Sequence record: PX502252.1
DNA length: 44,418 bases
Strand: one strand, 5' to 3'
Origin: a phage
Both the position numbers and the translations under genes were made by a program. This document shows positions 1-44,418 of the stretch, piece by piece (position 1 is the first letter of the stretch; each line of letters opens with the position of its first letter). A model generated the notes under the pieces. That model had not been told where the DNA came from. It saw only the letters and a program-made list of their open reading frames with translations, and made no database searches.

Positions 1-88
1 TATCTGACTATTGCTTCGCATAATATTGATAGGCCATTCCTTCGGGAGTGGCCTTTTCTTTTACCTACTACCTGTAACATTTCATTAA
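1..88. repeat. Exact duplicate of window end (1-88 = 44331-44418); circular-permutation or assembly overlap carrying the last 23 nt of the RNAP gene and its terminator
   Basis: Direct comparison of first and last 88 bases of the window: identical. Confidence 0.9.
31..62 (+). terminator. Hairpin terminator downstream of RNA polymerase gene (copy of 44358-44389)
   Basis: AGGCCATTCC-TTCG-GGAGTGGCCT stem (9 bp, one G-U) with tetraloop, followed by TTTTCTTTT. Confidence 0.6.
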
Positions 89-97
89 CATAAACGT

Positions 98-113
98 GTC
101 TCACATGTGAGAC
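98..113. promoter_or_regulatory. 16-bp perfect palindrome GTCTCACATGTGAGAC (site 1 of 7), immediately upstream of a phage promoter
   Basis: Sequence is its own reverse complement; recurs at 281, 2649, 3757, 8492, 24999, 38880 (variants). Confidence 0.7.
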
Positions 114-115
114 TT

Positions 116-138
116 ATTTACCGGACACTATAGGAGAG
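116..138 (+). promoter_or_regulatory. SP6-type phage RNAP promoter (ATTTACCGGACACTATAGGAGAG)
   Basis: Match to SP6-family promoter core GACACTATAG with conserved upstream ATTTAC; position analogous to T7 phi1.1A. Confidence 0.7.
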
Positions 139-280
139 CCGTCGGAGACGGGAAAGAAAGGGAATATAAAGGATATAAAGGAAGTAATAGGTATTAAAGG
201 TTATATAGGATTACCTAGGAATACCTATTACCTTCTTCCTTCCTCTTATTACTAATTAGAGGAAAGGGCAGACTTAGGTT
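139..280. other. AT-rich promoter-flanked element, candidate primary origin of replication
   Basis: Lies between two phage promoters just after the RNAP gene and before a gene-1.1-like ORF (T7 primary-origin architecture); 5' hairpin CCGTCggaGACGG; inverted repeat GTAATAGGTATT / AATACCTATTAC around CCTAGG; shares TATAGGATTACCTAGG with 32218-32345. Confidence 0.45.
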
Positions 281-301: not shown

Positions 302-324
302 ATTTACCGGACAGTATAGATAAG
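302..324 (+). promoter_or_regulatory. SP6-type phage promoter, divergent variant (ATTTACCGGACAGTATAGATAAG)
   Basis: Upstream half matches consensus; core CAGTATAGATA differs at 2 positions from CACTATAGAAG. Confidence 0.5.
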
Positions 325-3755: not shown

Positions 3756-3780
3756 TGTCTCACGCGTGAGACAGCCTTTT
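3756..3780 (+). terminator. Palindrome variant TGTCTCACGCGTGAGACA followed by GCCTTTT (site 4); hairpin plus T-run
   Basis: 18-bp perfect palindrome with centre CGCG instead of ATGT, then T-tract. Confidence 0.5.
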
Positions 3781-6476: not shown

Positions 6477-6499
6477 ATTTACTGGACACTATAGAAGGA
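6477..6499 (+). promoter_or_regulatory. SP6-type phage promoter (ATTTACTGGACACTATAGAAGGA)
   Basis: Consensus match, intergenic. Confidence 0.75.
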
Positions 6500-6562
6500 A
6501 AGCCTAGGTAATCTAGTTTATAAGGTAGTATAGGTAATTAAGTAAATATAGGAGGTATAAAT

Positions 6563-8490: not shown

Positions 8491-8491
8491 A

Positions 8492-8507
8492 GTCTCACGT
8501 GTGAGAC
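8492..8507. promoter_or_regulatory. Palindrome variant GTCTCACGTGTGAGAC (site 5), 15 bp upstream of phage promoter
   Basis: Same arms GTCTCAC/GTGAGAC with centre GT. Confidence 0.65.
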
Positions 8508-8522
8508 AAATCGGTGTCCGGT

Positions 8523-24981: not shown

Positions 24982-24998
24982 TGTTATACTCAAGGTTT

Positions 24999-25014
24999 GT
25001 CTCACATGTGAGAC
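24999..25014. promoter_or_regulatory. 16-bp perfect palindrome GTCTCACATGTGAGAC (site 6), between internal virion protein genes
   Basis: Exact copy, flanked by T/A extending palindrome to 18 bp. Confidence 0.7.
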
Positions 25015-25048
25015 ATGCCTTTATGAATGACACTAACTAGGAGGTAAC

Positions 25049-30015: not shown

Positions 30016-30298
30016 ACATGCAGCCACAGAGGATGAAGTAGGCATCCTGCATGGCGCTATTACGAAGATGTTTAATAAGAAAGCAAAGGCTATACTGGAC
30101 ACTATAGAAGCAGACCCTGATTCTGCTATGCACCTAGTGTCAGGTAAAGATATTGGAGCCATGTGTAAATGGGTTTTAGATAATGGCATTACTGCCACCC
30201 CTGCTGCACAGCAGGAGGAGTCCAAGTTATCTAAGCGCCTCAAGGCTATCCGAGAGGCGTCCAGTGGCAAGATCATTCAGTTCACTAAGGAGGATTGA
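29999..30298 (+). CDS. Terminase small subunit (start uncertain)
   Basis: Immediately upstream of large terminase with stop/start overlap; GTG 29999 has GGAGGA 6 nt upstream; ORF track extends to 29954. Confidence 0.55.
   Translation: MSVHNKHAATEDEVGILHGAITKMFNKKAKAILDTIEADPDSAMHLVSGKDIGAMCKWVLDNGITATPAAQQEESKLSKRLKAIREASSGKIIQFTKED
30091..30113 (+). promoter_or_regulatory. SP6-type phage promoter embedded in small terminase gene (TATACTGGACACTATAGAAGCAG)
   Basis: Core ACTGGACACTATAGAAG exact; in-frame encodes ILDTIEA. Confidence 0.55.
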
Positions 30299-32193
30299 TG
30301 GCTAAGGCAAGAGAATCACAAGCGGAGGCTCTTGCCAGATGGGAGATGCTACACGAGTTACAGCAGACCTTCCCTTATACCGCAGAAGGTTTGCTTCTCT
30401 TTGCTGATACAGTTATTCATAATTTAATTGCAGGTAGCCCTCATCTGATTCGTATGCAGGCAGACATCTTGAAATTCCTATTCTATGGACACAAGTATCG
30501 CCTCATCGAAGCGCCCCGTGGTATCGCTAAAACTACGCTGGCAGCAATCTATACGGTATTCCGTATCATTCATGAACCTCATAAGCGTATCATGGTTGTA
30601 TCACAAAACGCCAAGCGAGCAGAGGAAATCGCAGGTTGGGTTGTCAAAATCTTCCGAGGATTGGACTTCCTAGAGTTTATGCTGCCAGACATTTACGCTG
30701 GCGACCGTGCATCAGTTAAGGCATTCGAGATTCACTATACACTGCGTGGAAGCGACAAGTCTCCTTCTGTATCCTGCTACTCTATTGAAGCAGGTATGCA
30801 GGGTGCTCGTGCAGACATCATTCTAGCAGATGACGTTGAATCTATGCAGAATGCGCGTACCGCAGCAGGTCGTGCATTGCTTGAGGAATTAACCAAGGAG
30901 TTTGAATCTATCAACCAGTTTGGTGATATTATCTACCTTGGTACACCACAGAATGTGAACTCTATTTACAACAACCTTCCTGCACGCGGTTATTCTGTTC
31001 GTATCTGGACTGCTCGTTACCCTTCGGTAGAGCAAGAGCAATGTTATGGTGACTTCCTTGCACCTATGATCGTGCAGGATATGAAGGACAACCCAGCATT
31101 GCGAACAGGTTATGGTTTGGATGGCAACAGTGGCGCTCCTTGTGCACCTGAAATGTATGATGATGATGTCTTGATTGAGAAGGAAATCTCACAAGGTGCT
31201 GCTAAGTTCCAACTTCAGTTCATGCTTAACACTCGCATGATGGATGCTGACAGATACCCATTACGCCTGAACACTCTAATCTTCACCTCGTTTGGTACAG
31301 AGGAAGTCCCTGTGATGCCTACGTGGAGCAATGATTCCATAAACATCATTGGTGATGCACCTAAGTATGGTAACAAGCCTACAGATTTCATGTACAGACC
31401 TGTGGCACGTCCATACGAATGGGGTGCTGTTACACGCAAGATTATGTATATCGACCCAGCTGGTGGCGGTAAGAACGGGGATGAGACTGGCGTAGCCATC
31501 GTATTCCTGCACGGCACATTCATTTATGTATATCAGTGCTTTGGTGTGCCGGGCGGATACCGAGAATCGTCCCTGAATCGCATTGTGCAGGCCGCAAAGC
31601 AGGCGGGTGTTAAAGAGGTATTCATTGAGAAAAACTTTGGTCATGGTGCGTTTGAGGCTGTTATAAAGCCATACTTTGAAAGGGAGTGGCCTGTGACTAT
31701 CGAAGAAGACTACGCCACTGGTCAAAAAGAACTCCGTATCATCGAGACATTAGAGCCGCTGATGACCGCGCATAGACTTATCTTCAATGCTGAGATGGTC
31801 AAGTCGGATTTCGCTTCAGTACAGAATTACCCTCTGGAATTGCGGATGTCTTATAGTTTGTTCCACCAAATGTCGAACATCACTATTGAGAAGAACAGCC
31901 TCCGGCATGATGACCGCTTAGACGCTCTGTATGGCGCTGTGCGTCAATTAACTTCTCAGATAGACTATGACGAGGTTACTCGTATTAATCGCCTCAGAGC
32001 GCAGGAGATGCGCGATTATATACAGGCGATGAACACACCTAAACTTCGTCGGGCTATGCTGTACGGAGACTATGGTGATGAGCGAAGAACAACCAACACA
32101 TCCTTGGCAATGCAGCAGAGAGTTTACGGGCAGAATTGGAGGAACCGCTCAGGCTCTAGAAATACACTTTCCTCAAGGATTTCAAGGATTTAG
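30298..32193 (+). CDS. Terminase large subunit, T7 gp19-like
   Basis: Walker A-like PRGIAKTT, Walker B ADIILADDVE; 632 aa. Confidence 0.92.
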   Translation: MAKARESQAEALARWEMLHELQQTFPYTAEGLLLFADTVIHNLIAGSPHLIRMQADILKFLFYGHKYRLIEAPRGIAKTTLAAIYTVFRIIHEPHKRIMVVSQNAKRAEEIAGWVVKIFRGLDFLEFMLPDIYAGDRASVKAFEIHYTLRGSDKSPSVSCYSIEAGMQGARADIILADDVESMQNARTAAGRALLEELTKEFESINQFGDIIYLGTPQNVNSIYNNLPARGYSVRIWTARYPSVEQEQCYGDFLAPMIVQDMKDNPALRTGYGLDGNSGAPCAPEMYDDDVLIEKEISQGAAKFQLQFMLNTRMMDADRYPLRLNTLIFTSFGTEEVPVMPTWSNDSINIIGDAPKYGNKPTDFMYRPVARPYEWGAVTRKIMYIDPAGGGKNGDETGVAIVFLHGTFIYVYQCFGVPGGYRESSLNRIVQAAKQAGVKEVFIEKNFGHGAFEAVIKPYFEREWPVTIEEDYATGQKELRIIETLEPLMTAHRLIFNAEMVKSDFASVQNYPLELRMSYSLFHQMSNITIEKNSLRHDDRLDALYGAVRQLTSQIDYDEVTRINRLRAQEMRDYIQAMNTPKLRRAMLYGDYGDERRTTNTSLAMQQRVYGQNWRNRSGSRNTLSSRISRI

Positions 32194-32194
32194 T

Positions 32195-32217
32195 ATTTAC
32201 TGGACACTATAGGAGGA
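32195..32217 (+). promoter_or_regulatory. SP6-type phage promoter (ATTTACTGGACACTATAGGAGGA)
   Basis: Consensus match directly after terminase stop. Confidence 0.75.
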
Positions 32218-32345
32218 AGACCAAGAGAATAAAGGAGTATTATAGGATAATATAGGATTACCTAGGTTATATAGGTATGCCTTAGTATGGGTGTACTCCT
32301 GTACACCTATTCCTACTTACTATTTACTTATACATATAAGGAGTG
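32218..32345. other. AT-rich promoter-proximal element sharing TATAGGATTACCTAGG with region 139-280; candidate secondary origin
   Basis: 16-bp identical core and similar AT-rich TAGG-containing flanks. Confidence 0.4.
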
Positions 32346-32349
32346 TTAG

Positions 32350-32631
32350 ATGGCTAATGATTATAGTAATCAGCCTTTAACTGGTCGTTATGACCGTAAA
32401 CAGATTACACCAACTAGTGAAGCATTAATGCTCCCTGTTGTTACAGAGGAGTCTATTAAGAAGAAAGCCAATGTTATCAATGATGCAACCAAATCTGGTA
32501 AACAGAAAGCAGCAATGGTATGTCGTCCTGTAGGTGGCACTCTTGAGATTGCCATTGCTACTGGTAGCAAAGAGGATGCAGACTGGTTGTCTGTTAAAAT
32601 GGATGGCGTTGGCCTTATTACACCAGCTTAA
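32350..32631 (+). CDS. Paralog-family small protein 1 (93 aa)
   Basis: AAGGAG SD; shares IN...SGKQKAAMV...IAIATGS...W core with next two ORFs. Confidence 0.7.
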   Translation: MANDYSNQPLTGRYDRKQITPTSEALMLPVVTEESIKKKANVINDATKSGKQKAAMVCRPVGGTLEIAIATGSKEDADWLSVKMDGVGLITPA

Positions 32632-38159: not shown

Positions 38160-38900
38160 ATCTTAGTGTTGTACAAGGAATAACCAAAGTCAAAATTTTG
38201 ATGTAGGCGTGTGTGAGGTGTCTCGCCCTCGCCCTCGCCGGGATGTCCCCATAGGGTGGCCTGAGGGAATCCGTCTCCGACGGGCAGGGCTGATGCACTC
38301 CTTGTACTAGCTTAGTAGTACACAAGGGATGACCGTACTAGTTAGCTGGTACAGCCTAGTCTTTGCTCATGTACTAGCAAGGTGGAACGCCGGAGAACGC
38401 CTAGGACGGCCTAGGGATGGCTTAGTGGTGGACAAGGTGATTGCCTTAGTGAAGCCTCTTAGTGCATTCCTGAGGCTATTCAGGGCCATTCCTGAGCGTT
38501 TGACAGGGTGGGCGTGGGTGGGCTATCTGTTCGTTTCGTCGCTGGCGCTCCTCACTTCGTTTCGCCTAGCGCTCCACTCACAAGCCTGACGTGTACCTTA
38601 GTCACTACCTTAGGTTGTTCCTTGATGGATAGCTTAGGTTAACCTTAGTGGATTGCCTTAGTTAAAGCCTTAGTGCTTCACTTAGTATCAGCTTAGTAGT
38701 GTACCTTAGTCAGTCTTAGTGTTAGACCTTAGTGACTACATAGCTACGCTATAAGATGCAAATAGGTCGCGGTCGGTAGACCGCTAATAAGAAGTAATAG
38801 TAATAAGATGCAGTAGGAGGAACACCAGAAACCTAGTCAGCCTAGCCTATCCTAGCTCTGTATCTATTGCGTTTCCTTAGTCTCACATGTTAGACAACCT
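38160..38900. repeat. Non-coding, repeat-dense genome-terminus region (GC-rich block then array of about 11 CTTAGT/CCTTAGT units); probable site of terminal repeat/concatemer junction
   Basis: CTCGCC x3, TACTAG x3, ATTCCTGAG x2, TTCGTTTCG x2, then CTTAGT repeats every 10-14 bp (38590-38750); no SD-led ORFs; analogous to T7 terminal-repeat heptamer arrays. Confidence 0.6.
38880..38895. promoter_or_regulatory. Palindrome variant GTCTCACATGTTAGAC (site 7, one mismatch)
   Basis: 15/16 match to the recurrent palindrome. Confidence 0.5.
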
Positions 38901-41722: not shown

Positions 41723-44350
41723 ATGCAAGATTTACACGCTATCCAGCTTCAGCTTGAAGAGGAAATGTTTAACGGCGGTATTCGTCGCTTTGAAGCAGAC
41801 CAACAACGCCAGATTGCATCAGGTAATGAATCCGATACGGCATGGAATCGTCGCCTATTGTCGGAACTTATCGCACCTATGGCTGAAGGTATTCAGGCTT
41901 ATAAGGAAACCTACGAAGGCAAGAAAGGACGCGCACCGCGTGCACTGGCTTTCATTAACTGCGTAGAGAACGAAGTGGCAGCATATATCACGATGAAGAT
42001 CGTAATGGATATGCTTAACACTGATGTAACCTTGCAAGCCATAGCAATGAATGTAGCTGATCGCATCGAAGACCAAGTACGCTTCAGCAAGCTGGAAGGT
42101 CACGCCGCCAAATACTTTGAGAAAGTAAAGAAGTCGCTTAAGGCAAGTAAGACTAAATCATATCGCCATGCGCACAACGTAGCGGTGGTGGCTGAGAAGT
42201 CAGTAGCTGACCGTGACTCTGATTTCTCTCGCTGGGAAGCATGGCCTAAAGATACCTTGCTACAAATCGGTATGACCTTGCTAGAAATACTGGAGAATAG
42301 TGTATTCTTCAATGGTCATCCTGTTTTCCTCCGCACCTTGCGCACTAATGGTGGTAAGCATGGTGTTTACTACTTACAGACCAGTGAACATGTAGGGAAA
42401 TGGATTACAGCATTCAAAGAACATGTAGCGCAACTAAGCCCAGCGTATGCACCTTGCGTTATACCTCCACGTCCGTGGGTTTCTCCTTTTAATGGTGGAT
42501 TTCACACTGAGAAGGTGGCAAGCCGCATCCGTCTAGTTAAAGGAAACCGCGAGCACGTCCGCAAGTTAACCAAAAAGCAGATGCCAGCGGTTTACAAGGC
42601 TGTTAACGCTTTGCAGGAGACTAAATGGCAGGTTAATAAAGAAGTCTTGCAGGTAGTAGAAGACGTTATCCGTCTCGACCTTGGCTATGGTGTACCTTCA
42701 TTTAAACCACTCATCGACCGCGAGAATAAGCCAGCTAACCCAGTGCCGTTAGAATTCCAGCACTTGCGAGGCCGTGAGTTGAAAGAAATGTTAACGCCGG
42801 AACAATGGCAAGCCTTCATTAACTGGAAAGGTGAATGTACCAAGCTGTATACCGCAGAGACTAAGCGCGGCAGCAAGTCGGCGGCAACCGTTCGCATGGT
42901 AGGGCAGGCCCGTAAATACAGCCAGTTTGACGCTATTTATTTTGTATATGCACTGGATAGCCGTTCACGCGTTTATGCGCAATCTAGCACGCTCTCACCG
43001 CAATCAAACGACTTAGGCAAGGCGCTCCTACGGTTTACCGAAGGGCAGACTATAAACAGCGCTGAGGCGCTTAAGTGGTTTTTGGTGAACGGGGCGAATA
43101 ACTGGGGTTGGGATAAGAAAACCTTTGACGTGCGCACCGCTAACGTGTTGGATGGTGAATTCCAAGACATGTGCCGCGATATTGCAGCCGACCCGCTGAC
43201 CTTTACTCAATGGGTAAATGCTGATTCTCCTTACGGTTTCCTTGCATGGTGCTTTGAATACGCGCGTTATCTAGATGCGCTGGATGAAGGCACGCAAGAC
43301 CAATTCATGACGCACCTACCAGTACACCAAGATGGTAGCTGTTCCGGCATCCAGCACTACAGCGCTATGCTACGCGACGAAGTCGGTGCTAAGGCGGTAA
43401 ACCTTAAACCATCCAACGAGCCGCAAGACATTTATGGCGCGGTTGCTCAGGTTGTTATCCAGAAGAATTACGCCTACATGAATGCAGATGATGCGGAAAC
43501 TTTCACATCTGGAAGTGTAACCCTTACAGGTGCAGAACTGCGCAGCATGGCTAACGCGTGGGATATGATTGGGATCACTCGCGGCCTGACCAAGAAACCC
43601 GTTATGACCCTGCCATACGGCTCCACACGCTTAACCTGCCGTGAATCGGTGATTGATTATATCGTTGATTTGGAAGAAAAAGAGGCACAACGAGCTATCG
43701 CCGAAGGGCGGACGGCGAATCCTGTGCACCCTTTTGATAATGACCGTAAAGACTACCTGACACCGGGCGCGGCATATAACTATATGACTGCTCTCATCTG
43801 GCCTTCCATCTCTGAGGTTGTGAAAGCTCCGATAGTTGCCATGAAAATGATTCGCCAGCTTGCACGTTTCGCAGCTAAGAGGAACGAAGGATTAGAATAC
43901 CCCTTACCGACTGGCTTCATCTTGCAACAAAAGATAATGGCAACCGATATGCTTCGCGTATCCACTTGCTTGATGGGTGAAATCAAGATGAGTCTCCAGA
44001 TTGAAACAGATGTAGTTGATGAAACGGCAATGATGGGTGCGGCTGCTCCTAACTTCGTGCACGGTCATGATGCTAGCCACCTGATTCTGACTGTATGTGA
44101 CCTAGTGGATAAAGGTATTACATCCATTGCAGTCATCCATGATTCTTTCGGCACTCATGCAGGACGTACCGCAGACCTGCGGGATAGCTTAAGGGCAGAA
44201 ATGGTTAAGATGTATCAAGACCATAATGCCTTGCAAAACCTGCTGGATGTGCACGAAGAACGTTGGTTAGTAGATACCGGAATCCAAGTACCAGAGCAAG
44301 GAGAGTTTGACCTTAACGAAATCTTAGTATCTGACTATTGCTTCGCATAA
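41723..44350 (+). CDS. Single-subunit DNA-directed RNA polymerase, SP6-type
   Basis: 875 aa; N-terminus [32 protein letters not shown] and long stretches match SP6 RNAP as I recall it; motifs [14 protein letters not shown] and VHDSFGTH; cognate promoters throughout genome. Confidence 0.97.
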
Positions 44351-44357
44351 TATTGAT

Positions 44358-44389
44358 AGGCCATTCCTTCGGGAGTGGCCTTTTCTTTT
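44358..44389 (+). terminator. Hairpin terminator immediately downstream of RNAP stop
   Basis: AGGCCATTCC-TTCG-GGAGTGGCCT followed by TTTTCTTTT; same as 31-62. Confidence 0.65.
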
Positions 44390-44418
44390 ACCTACTACCT
44401 GTAACATTTCATTAACAT

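What the first reader, a model, noticed from the sequence alone, without database searches (positions are those of the whole stretch)
32218..32345. Second copy of the TATAGGATTACCTAGG AT-rich element downstream of terminase
The 16-bp core is identical to that in 139-280 and again follows a phage promoter, suggesting a duplicated functional module (origin or transcript leader) rather than chance.
Basis: seen in the sequence. Interest (0 to 1): 0.5.

Follow-up and report, generated by a model that had tools for sequence, protein, structure and literature searches.

The report
Promoter-linked TAGG repeat arrays, SP6-like phage
The repeated 16-mer is real: it belongs to a family of short 10-base "TAGG" repeat arrays that sit just after three phage promoters in all SP6/K1-5-like phages, two of them where phage T7 has its replication origins, so they are most likely the easily opened part of such origins, though this is untested.

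Summary
The window is a circularly permuted genome of a K1E/K1-5-like (Vectrevirus, SP6-like) coliphage.

**Observation confirmed.** ATATAGGATTACCTAGG occurs exactly twice, at 203-219 and 32250-32266. Each copy lies 40-70 nt after a phage RNA polymerase promoter. About 4e-6 such matches are expected by chance.

**What it is.** The 17-mer is two adjacent units of a tandem array with period 9-10 nt and consensus wwwTAGGTA.
- The genome has three such arrays, each just after a phage promoter: 158-219, about 6500-6553 and 32232-32275.
- All three are C-poor (5-8% C) and AT-rich.
- All are kept at the same positions in K1-5 and SP6; the first two are kept in about 15 lineages.
- The exact 16-mer is not conserved; the module is.
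- Promoter-plus-TAGGTA arrays also follow the terminase gene in distant T7-like phages.

**Positions.** Copy 1 lies between two promoters, after the RNA polymerase gene and before a T7 gp1.1 homologue. This is the place of T7's phi1.1A/R1.1/phi1.1B primary origin. Copy 2 matches T7's phiOR secondary origin.

**Best reading (about 0.4).** The array is the unwinding and priming part of T7-type, transcription-activated origins.

**Main rival (about 0.3).** It is an RNA leader or processing element. Conserved hairpins support this for copy 1, less so for copy 2. The strict periodicity remains unexplained.

The parts
32195..32215 (+). Phage RNA polymerase promoter directly after the large terminase stop codon (+1 = G at 32212). 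It is the positional counterpart of T7 phiOR.
   Evidence: It matches the 14-member promoter family of the window. It is conserved after the terminase gene in all relatives.
32232..32275 (+). TAGG array 2: five units spaced 9-11 nt. It contains the exact 17-mer at 32250-32266. This is the finding.
   Evidence: Regex and cluster scans, unit spacing, conservation in relatives and the profile hit at E = 6e-17.
32276..32288 (+). Conserved box TATGCCTTAGTAT (GCCTTAGT), the same motif as the repeats near the genome ends.
   Evidence: It is nearly invariant in the alignments. Compare the CTTAGT array at 38.4-38.75 kb.
32289..32307 (+). 8-bp G+C hairpin GGGTGTAC-TCCT-GTACACC.
   Evidence: Across 20 distinct relatives 90.6% of cells are paired and 5 of 8 pairs show compensatory changes; no shuffle of 500 reached the observed covariation score. 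It is not a canonical intrinsic terminator.
32308..32349 (+). CCT/CU-rich tract followed by the ribosome-binding site (TAAGGAG, 32337-32343) of gp41, which starts at 32350.
116..133 (+). Promoter A after the RNA polymerase gene (+1 = 133), the counterpart of T7 phi1.1A.
   Evidence: An intrinsic terminator at 31-62 precedes it.
139..151 (+). Mini hairpin CCGTC-GGA-GACGG at the 5' end of the promoter A transcript.
   Evidence: Covariation across 19 sequences at the central pair: GC 12, AU 4, UA 2.
158..219 (+). TAGG array 1: seven units, with the 17-mer at 203-219. A convergent array on the minus strand (250 to 206) meets it at CCTAGG 214-219.
178..237 (+). Predicted 21-bp irregular hairpin (5 + 12 + 4 bp). 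The 16-mer forms its apical part. It occupies the position of the T7 R1.1 RNase III site.
   Evidence: Every lineage folds into a 20-25 bp hairpin here, with z from -1.7 to -5.5 and a mean of -2.9.
238..267 (+). Second hairpin, CCTTCCTCT...AGAGGAAAGG.
302..319 (+). Promoter B (ATTTACCGGACAGTATAG), the counterpart of T7 phi1.1B. It is followed by gp8 (350-478), a T7 gp1.1 homologue.
   Evidence: gp8 against T7 gp1.1: 56% identity, E = 1e-12.
6477..6553 (+). Third promoter (+1 = 6494) followed by TAGG array 3, which runs into the ribosome-binding site of gene 15.
   Evidence: It is conserved in K1-5 and SP6. Profile hits have E from 0.007 to 0.14.

Best explanation
The element is one of three paralogous 'promoter + TAGG array' modules of SP6-like phages. 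The most likely role is as the downstream half of a T7-type, transcription-activated replication origin. The proposed steps are as follows. The phage RNA polymerase starts at the adjacent promoter. It transcribes into 50-70 bp of A+T-rich, C-depleted DNA that is easily unwound and carries a GG every 9-10 nt on the non-template strand. The resulting purine-rich, C-poor RNA stays annealed or is handed to the phage DNA polymerase as a primer. The displaced strand lets the primase-helicase load. Copy 1 (158-219) would be the primary origin, the counterpart of T7 phi1.1A/B. Copy 2 (32232-32275, the finding) would be a secondary origin, the counterpart of T7 phiOR. The exact 17-mer identity is a by-product: it is two adjacent units of arrays built from the same unit type, one base substitution away from the state seen in relatives. 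What is shown: the arrays, their promoters, their conservation, their composition and their synteny with T7. What is inferred: that they act in replication, and the priming mechanism.
For: (1) Synteny. Copy 1 lies between two phage promoters, after the RNA polymerase gene and before a gp1.1 homologue with 56% identity to T7 gp1.1. T7 replication starts at phi1.1A/phi1.1B, and phiOR and phi6.5 serve as secondary origins (PMC8373140). Copy 2 follows the promoter just after the terminase gene, as phiOR does in T7. (2) Composition. Of 14 window promoters, only the three with arrays have 5-8% C and a GC skew of +0.5 to +0.7 in the first 80 transcribed nt; the others have 14-27% C. As a T7 control, of the four origin-associated promoters (OL, 1.1B, 6.5, OR), OL, 1.1B and OR have the lowest downstream C content of 17 promoters. 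All four have the four least stable downstream duplexes. In the window the arrays at 6494 and 32212 have the two least stable downstream duplexes. The three array promoters give the three most hybrid-favouring RNA:DNA minus DNA:DNA energies: -15.5, -12.2 and -8.8 kcal/mol. (3) Conservation. Both loci persist in all SP6-like lineages, down to 55% primase identity. Locus 1 is 90-97% identical in 76 Vectrevirus records. (4) One family. A profile built from locus 2 alone finds loci 1 and 3 and nothing else. (5) Wider distribution. A promoter plus TAGGTA array lies 100-520 nt after the terminase gene in 13 distant T7-like contigs whose TerL is 34-42% identical.
Against: No replication data exist for any SP6-like phage in the literature I could reach. 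T7's own origin regions have no TAGG array, and a plain unwinding element needs neither an invariant AGG nor a strict 9-10 nt period. In my calculation T7 phi1.1B, phiOL and phi6.5 are not hybrid-favouring; only phiOR is. So 'R-loop-prone' is not a shared property of T7 origins, whereas low duplex stability is. The nearest-neighbour parameters were recalled from memory. The SP6 primase site 5'-GCA-3' (PMC2034472) is absent from arrays 2 and 3 on the displaced strand. Locus 1 also folds into a conserved 20-25 bp hairpin, and locus 2 has a covarying hairpin. RNA-level selection could therefore explain part of the conservation.
Confidence: 0.4

Rival explanations
1. RNA-level leader or processing module. 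The arrays and their CCT-rich partners act in the transcript, forming long irregular hairpins cut by host RNase III (as at T7 R1.1) or stabilising 5'/3' hairpins that set mRNA ends, stability or translation of genes 8, 15 and 41.
For: Copy 1 sits where T7 has R1.1 (own knowledge of the T7 map; the T7 sequence folds with z = -2.8). Every lineage forms a 20-25 bp hairpin at locus 1 with a different stem sequence, mean z = -2.9. About 22 bp is the size RNase III needs (PMC1540722). The 5' mini hairpin and the locus 2 GC hairpin show clear compensatory changes. The sense strand folds 2-4 kcal/mol better than the antisense strand in 14 of 18 cases at each locus. The arrays always lie in a 5' untranslated region, and their units resemble truncated Shine-Dalgarno sequences.
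Against: The part shared by the copies is the array, and it is not what pairs. Array 3 has no complementary arm. The first 3-4 units of array 1 are unpaired. Locus 2 as a whole is barely more structured than shuffles (mean z = -1.7) and has only an 8-bp hairpin, too short for RNase III. Pairing does not explain the 9-10 nt period or the invariant AGG. G-U pairs are few, so a DNA-level inverted repeat fits equally well. No Rfam family matches.
Confidence: 0.3
2. Sequence-specific protein-binding array on DNA, related to the short-repeat arrays next to the terminal repeats of T7-like phages. A phage protein (for example small terminase or another DNA-binding factor) binds cooperatively to the TAGGTA units, for packaging, end formation or regulation.
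For: The period is strict and the core invariant. Lineage-specific unit variants are shared by loci 1 and 2 of the same genome: 37 nt at 92% in one lineage, and an odd CATTATGTCT unit in another. The same core recurs in the CTTAGT/CTTAGGT arrays at the genome ends. It also recurs in T7 SRL/SRR, where CCTAAAG equals CTTTAGG on the other strand. TAGGTA arrays after the terminase gene, near the right end, are common in distant T7-like phages.
Against: No binding protein is known. In this phage loci 1-3 are 6-12 kb from the physical ends. A period of 9.6 bp is out of phase with B-DNA, so sites would rotate around the helix. Shared oddities can come from recombination between the loci rather than from a co-evolving factor. 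The motif kinship is short (TAGG/AGGT) and may be superficial.
Confidence: 0.15
3. Chance similarity, or neutral slippage-generated A+T-rich repeats with no function.
For: Tandem 10-nt repeats arise easily by slippage. Unit number varies slightly among relatives. The exact 17-mer identity itself needs only one substitution relative to CrRp3.
Against: The probability of a shared 17-mer is about 4e-6. The arrays are kept at three syntenic sites from K1-5 to SP6, and loci 1 and 2 in about 15 further lineages. Locus 1 is as conserved as the flanking genes. Only about 0.09 arrays are expected in a shuffled genome.
Confidence: 0.03

Closest known systems
T7 primary replication origin region (phi1.1A, RNase III site R1.1, phi1.1B, A+T-rich segment, gene 1.1)
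   Same: The gene order is the same: RNA polymerase gene, two tandem phage promoters with a structured element between them, then a gp1.1 homologue. The downstream DNA is A+T-rich and C-poor. The hairpin is of comparable size and z-score. The 10-mer ACCTTCTTCC occurs in the 3' arm of both.
   Different: In T7 the A+T-rich segment follows the second promoter; here it lies between the promoters. T7 has no 9-10 nt TAGG array, only loose TTAAG repeats. The helicase-primase gene follows gp8 directly here. No origin has been mapped in SP6-like phages.
T7 phiOR secondary origin (promoter after gene 19)
   Same: A phage promoter lies within about 100 nt of the terminase stop. It is followed by A+T-rich, C-poor, G-skewed DNA, then a hairpin and a small gene. 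Both are the most hybrid-favouring or nearly so in their genomes.
   Different: T7 phiOR is about 550 bp from the right terminal repeat. Here about 6.3 kb of genes (41-49, including tailspikes) lie between the module and the end. The T7 sequence is only loosely periodic (about 11 nt) and lacks the TAGG core.
T7 SRL/SRR short-repeat arrays beside the terminal repeat (function unknown, own knowledge)
   Same: A short core is repeated every 10-13 bp. The core is related: CCTAAAG equals CTTTAGG on the other strand. In distant T7-like phages TAGGTA/CTTTAGGT arrays lie between the terminase gene and the right end.
   Different: The arrays of the finding are internal, promoter-proximal and more A+T-rich. 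The window has a separate CTTAGT array at its ends (38.4-38.75 kb).
Promoter plus DNA-unwinding-element origins that use a persistent transcript as primer (T4 oriF/oriG, ColE1 RNA II; own knowledge)
   Same: A promoter is followed by an easily unwound segment with a G-rich non-template strand. The predicted RNA:DNA hybrid is more stable than the duplex.
   Different: The phage lineage and polymerases differ. Those origins carry no periodic repeat.
Iteron-type plasmid and phage origins
   Same: Directly repeated short units lie next to an A+T-rich region.
   Different: The units here are 9-10 bp rather than 17-22 bp. No Rep-type initiator gene lies nearby. The arrays are always transcribed from a phage promoter.

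Membership tests
T7-type transcription-activated replication origin | A promoter for the phage's own RNA polymerase | tested here: met
   Promoter family members lie at 116-133, 6477-6493 and 32195-32215.
T7-type transcription-activated replication origin | An A+T-rich, easily unwound segment immediately downstream of the promoter | tested here: met
   A+T is 64-71% against 55% for the genome, and C is 5-8%. The arrays at 6494 and 32212 have the two least stable downstream duplexes of the 14 promoters. T7's four origin-associated promoters behave the same way among 17.
T7-type transcription-activated replication origin | Same genomic position as the mapped T7 origins | tested here: met
   One module lies after the RNA polymerase gene and before the gp1.1 homologue. 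Another lies after the terminase gene (PMC8373140).
T7-type transcription-activated replication origin | A primase recognition site on the displaced strand | tested here: inconclusive
   The SP6 primase site is 5'-GCA-3' (PMC2034472). One GCA lies at 268 beside array 1, and none in arrays 2 or 3 on the + strand. A trinucleotide carries little information.
T7-type transcription-activated replication origin | DNA synthesis actually initiates there | not testable with these tools
   This needs origin mapping or a plasmid amplification assay.
RNase III processing site of T7-like phages (R1.1 type) | An irregular hairpin of about two helical turns (about 20-22 bp) in an intergenic transcript | tested here: met
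   This holds for copy 1 only: 21 bp at 178-237, and 20-25 bp in every lineage.
RNase III processing site of T7-like phages (R1.1 type) | The same hairpin feature in the copy that is the finding (32218-32345) | tested here: not met
   There is only an 8-bp hairpin at 32289-32307, and the region folds no better than shuffles (z = -0.85).
RNase III processing site of T7-like phages (R1.1 type) | Cleavage by RNase III, and absence of antideterminant base pairs in the proximal and distal boxes | not tested
   The cleavage site is unknown, so the boxes cannot be placed.
Terminal short-repeat arrays (T7 SRL/SRR type) | A short core repeated every 10-13 bp | tested here: met
   Spacing is 9 nt (42 times), 10 nt (51 times) and 11 nt (9 times).
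Terminal short-repeat arrays (T7 SRL/SRR type) | Directly adjacent to the terminal repeat | tested here: not met
   The arrays at 0.2, 6.5 and 32.2 kb are 6-12 kb from the ends, which lie at about 38.3-38.6 kb by comparison with K1-5.
Intrinsic or class I phage terminator | A G+C hairpin followed by a U run | tested here: not met
   The scan finds none in 32000-32500. The hairpin is followed by UAUUCCUAC.
Any Rfam family | Reaches the gathering score | tested here: not met
   There are no hits at gathering threshold. Only weak miRNA-precursor-like hairpin matches appear at locus 1, at 21-23 bits against 75-85 required, and none at locus 2.

The most novel reading that the evidence does not exclude
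The TAGGTA arrays are a supergroup-wide class of cis elements of T7-like phages, read by an as yet unknown sequence-specific factor. On DNA this could be a phage protein that links transcription from particular promoters to replication initiation, end formation or packaging, which would tie origin-type promoters to the enigmatic terminal short repeats. On RNA it could be an abundant roughly 90-nt transcript carrying 5-7 UAGGU repeats that titrates a host RNA-binding factor. The strict 9-10 nt period, the invariant AGG, the lineage-specific variants shared between loci of one genome, and the recurrence after the terminase gene in phages with only 35% TerL identity would then all reflect recognition by that factor.
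Probability: 0.15. Interest if true: 0.7.

Novelty: new variant of a known kind. Interest (0 to 1): 0.45.

Why it matters
SP6, K1-5 and K1E are widely used phages: the SP6 polymerase is a standard reagent, and the K1 phages are therapy candidates. Their replication origins have not, to my knowledge, been mapped. None of 76 related GenBank records annotates this element. The arrays give three precise, testable candidate origins. They would also guide the engineering of phagemids or orthogonal replication systems like those built from the T7 origin. In addition, they suggest a possible link between origin-type promoters and the unexplained short-repeat arrays near the ends of T7-like genomes.

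Tried and rejected
- **Rfam.** The whole window at gathering threshold gave nothing. Both loci at E <= 1 gave only sub-threshold miRNA-like hairpin matches at locus 1.
- **Sigma-70 promoters and intrinsic terminators.** None were found in the elements. The locus 2 hairpin is not a canonical terminator, although one GenBank record labels it so.
- **MAFFT plus RNAalifold on locus 1.** This recovered only the mini hairpin, because the repeats misalign the 3' arms. I fell back on per-sequence folds and z-scores.
- **Strict concerted evolution.** The intra-genome locus 1 against locus 2 score is only modestly above the inter-genome score (16.8 against 14.4). Only some lineages show long private matches. 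The evidence suggests occasional exchange, not constant homogenisation.
- **Units as copies of the promoter's specificity region.** Rejected: the TAGGTA core stays the same while promoters differ.
- **CsrA-type GGA sites.** Rejected: SP6 units are mostly AGGU.
- **Iteron/Rep origin.** Rejected: the units are too short and there is no initiator gene.
- **Proteins downstream.** PHROG scans of gp8, gp15 and gp41-42 gave no functional clue.
- **Literature.** Searches for SP6-like origins, RNase III sites or T7 SRL/SRR found nothing usable. The SP6 and K1-5 genome papers are not in the library.
- **Pattern scan.** The variable-gap pattern scan of IMG/VR failed twice. A fixed-gap pattern worked.

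Full report
**What the window is.** Positions 1-91 repeat exactly at 44328-44418, so the contig is a circularly closed assembly of about 44.3 kb. It is 83-96% identical to K1E/K1-5-like coliphages of the genus Vectrevirus, in the SP6-like subfamily Molineuxvirinae. The RNA polymerase gene is at 41723-44350, so window position 1 lies just after it. Next come a 42-aa gene (350-478) and the primase-helicase gene (482-2470). The large terminase gene is at 30295-32193 and gp41 starts at 32350. By comparison with K1-5, the physical ends lie near 38.3-38.6 kb.

**Check of the observation.** TATAGGATTACCTAGG occurs exactly at 204-219 and 32251-32266, and the identity runs to 17 nt. Given the base composition of the two regions, 4e-6 shared 17-mers are expected. 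Shuffled versions share at most 11 nt. Both copies follow a promoter of the phage's own RNA polymerase, at 116-133 and 32195-32215. These belong to a family of 14 promoters in the window.

**What the 16-mer is part of.** It is two adjacent units of a tandem array.
- On the + strand the window has only two runs of at least four NAGG units spaced 9-12 nt: 158-219 (7 units) and 32232-32275 (5 units). A shuffled genome gives 0.085.
- A looser scan adds a third array at about 6500-6553, again right after a phage promoter.
- Across 27 array sequences from 15 lineages, successive AGGs are 9 nt apart 42 times, 10 nt 51 times and 11 nt 9 times. Doubled spacings mark a missing unit. The unit consensus is wwwTAGGTA.
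- The arrays are nearly free of C: 2 of 67 nt in array 1.
- The first 80 transcribed nt after the three array promoters have 5-8% C and a GC skew of +0.5 to +0.7. The other 11 promoters have 14-27% C and a skew of -0.2 to +0.3.

**Conservation in relatives.** I fetched the terminase-downstream and primase-upstream regions of 27 and 29 related contigs, plus the whole K1-5 and SP6 genomes.
- Every lineage has 'promoter, TAGG array, CCT-rich tract' after the terminase gene.
- Every lineage that retains the region has 'promoter A, mini hairpin, TAGG array, CCT-rich tract, palindrome, promoter B, gp8' after the RNA polymerase gene. This includes a relative with only 55% primase identity.
- Array 3 is nearly identical in K1-5 and SP6.
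- Locus 1 is 90-97% identical in 76 Vectrevirus records, none of which annotates it.
- The exact 16-mer is not conserved. K1-5 has TATAGGTTATCTAGG at locus 1 and TATAGGTTAACCTAGG at locus 2. CrRp3 and R4596 have the window's 16-mer at locus 2, but CrRp3's locus 1 differs by one base.
- A sequence-only profile built from locus 2 of 11 lineages was searched against the window, K1-5, SP6 and T7. It finds locus 2 at E about 1e-17. It then finds only locus 1, on both strands (E = 6e-5 and 2e-3), and locus 3 (E = 0.007-0.14). It finds nothing in T7.

The three loci are therefore one family, and the finding is a real paralogous module. The minus-strand hit shows that locus 1 is a convergent pair of arrays meeting at CCTAGG 214-219.

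**Exchange between loci.** Some lineages share private features between their own loci 1 and 2: 37 nt at 92% in one, and a non-consensus CATTATGTCT unit in another. On average the intra-genome score is only modestly higher than the inter-genome score (16.8 against 14.4). This fits occasional sequence exchange, or a co-evolving factor. The data do not separate the two.

**Structure.**
- At locus 1 the transcript from promoter A begins with a 5-bp mini hairpin that covaries (GC 12, AU 4, UA 2 at the central pair).
- The last units of array 1 pair with the CCT-rich tract to give a 21-bp irregular hairpin at 178-237. The 16-mer forms its apex.
- Every lineage forms a 20-25 bp hairpin here with a different stem sequence. 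The z-scores run from -1.7 to -5.5, with a mean of -2.9.
- At locus 2 the only robust structure is an 8-bp G+C hairpin at 32289-32307. In 20 distinct relatives 90.6% of cells are paired and 5 of 8 pairs show compensatory changes, beyond all 500 shuffles.
- Locus 2 as a whole is weakly structured: z = -0.85 in the window and a mean of -1.7 across lineages.
- Array 3 has no complementary arm.
- The sense strand folds 2-4 kcal/mol better than the antisense strand in 14 of 18 cases at each locus. This is mild evidence for selection on the RNA.

What the copies share is the array, not a fold.

**Comparison with T7.**
- gp8 is a homologue of T7 gp1.1 (56% identity, E = 1e-12).
- The order 'RNA polymerase gene, promoter, structured element, promoter, gp1.1' is that of T7 phi1.1A, R1.1, phi1.1B and gene 1.1. 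The R1.1 position is from my own knowledge of the T7 map.
- T7 replication starts at phi1.1A/phi1.1B. phiOR and phi6.5 act as secondary origins, and every T7 origin needs a T7 promoter (PMC8373140).
- T7 phiOR lies about 100 nt after the terminase gene, like the promoter of the finding.
- As a control I applied the same measures to all 17 T7 promoters. Of the four origin-associated promoters (OL, 1.1B, 6.5, OR), OL, 1.1B and OR have the lowest downstream C content (about 10-11%; phi6.5 has 16%). All four have the four least stable downstream duplexes.
- In the window the arrays at 6494 and 32212 have the two least stable downstream duplexes.
- The three array promoters have the three most hybrid-favouring RNA:DNA minus DNA:DNA energies (-15.5, -12.2 and -8.8 kcal/mol). 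The parameters were recalled from memory. In T7 only phiOR shares that last property.

**Beyond SP6-like phages.** A fixed-gap pattern (TAGGTA N4 TAGGTA N4 TAGG) hit 105 stretches among the 2.9 million IMG/VR contigs.
- 26 of the 102 loci analysed carry a T7-type large terminase gene in the fetched stretch.
- Six of these are SP6-like.
- In 13 distant ones (TerL 34-42% identical) the array lies 98-520 nt downstream of the terminase gene.
- In several it comes right after a T7-type promoter. One example is ...GCACTATAGGAAAG... followed by TATAGGTAAC four times.
- In those phages the array is close to the right genome end, like T7's SRR repeats.
- T7's SRL/SRR unit CCTAAAG reads CTTTAGG on the other strand.
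- The window's own ends carry a dense CTTAGT/CTTAGGT array.
- The box GCCTTAGT also sits between array 2 and its hairpin.

This motif kinship is a lead, not a demonstrated homology.

**Interpretation.** Three readings survive.
1. Origin module (about 0.4). It is favoured by synteny with both mapped T7 origins, by the T7-validated compositional signature and by deep conservation. It does not explain the strict period or the invariant AGG.
2. RNA leader or RNase III-type processing (about 0.3). This is well supported for the hairpin at locus 1 and the small hairpin at locus 2. It does not account for what the copies share, and it fails the size criterion at the finding itself.
3. Array binding a sequence-specific protein, akin to the terminal repeats (about 0.15). 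It explains the periodicity and the lineage-specific co-variation, but no binder is known.

The readings are not exclusive. In T7 the R1.1 site and the primary origin also overlap. Chance or neutral slippage is very unlikely (about 0.03).

**Verdict.** The 16-mer itself is incidental. The element is an unannotated, conserved variant of the T7-type promoter-associated origin/leader region, distinguished by a periodic TAGG array. It is of moderate interest: it gives concrete, testable origin candidates for SP6-like phages and raises a possible link to the unexplained terminal short repeats of T7-like genomes.

Noticed in passing
window 1-91 and 44328-44418: An exact 91-bp duplication at the two ends of the window. 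It is an assembly overlap of a circularly closed contig, so the real genome is about 44,327 bp and permuted relative to K1-5.
   Followed up: partly
window 6477-6553 (K1-5 L003 12580-12656; SP6 L063 12545-12618): A third promoter-proximal TAGG array runs into the ribosome-binding site of gene 15. It is nearly identical in K1-5 and SP6.
   Followed up: partly
window 97-115, 280-298, 1080-1098, 2648-2666, 3756-3774, 8491-8509, 24998-25016, 38879-38897: Eight copies of an 18-19 bp palindrome, TGTCTCACATGTGAGACA. Several lie 3-15 nt upstream of phage promoters, and two flank array 1. SP6-like relatives carry a covarying version (GTCCAACGTGTTGGAC). It may be an operator for a dimeric protein or a weak terminator/insulator hairpin.
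   Followed up: no
window 38380-38740 (K1-5 L003 100-420): A dense array of CCTAGG and C(C/T)TTAGT(G) motifs every 10-13 bp spans the terminal repeat and the DNA just inside the left end. It is analogous to T7 SRL/SRR. 17 of the 31 CTTAGT sites in the genome lie between 38.1 and 39.2 kb.
   Followed up: partly
window 31-62: A strong intrinsic terminator (10-bp stem plus T run) lies directly after the RNA polymerase gene. It is probably the stop for early host-polymerase transcription.
   Followed up: no
window 139-151: The 5'-terminal mini hairpin of the promoter A transcript (CCNTC-GGA-GANGG) shows clean compensatory changes across lineages.
   Followed up: yes
loci L113, L087, L098, L099, L135, L084, L124, L112, L132, L067, L105, L127, L102: Distant T7-like phages (TerL 34-42% identical) carry perfect or near-perfect 10-bp TAGGTA-type tandem arrays 100-520 nt after the terminase gene, often just after a T7-type promoter. 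L132-type contigs even contain TAGGATTACCTAGG.
   Followed up: partly
loci L037, L039, L044, L049, L051 (between gp8 and the primase-helicase gene); K1E L001 2186-2719: Some relatives have an extra endonuclease-type ORF (RefSeq labels the VEc3 one HNH endonuclease) inserted between gp8 and the primase-helicase gene. In K1E the terminase gene is split by a homing endonuclease.
   Followed up: no
T7 locus L169 405-480, 5923-6005, 18545-18600, 39229-39330: In T7 the origin-associated promoters (OL, 1.1B, 6.5, OR) are followed by loosely periodic CTTAAG/CTTTAAG (OL, 1.1B, 6.5) or roughly 11-nt units (OR). They have the four least stable downstream duplexes of all 17 promoters.
   Followed up: partly
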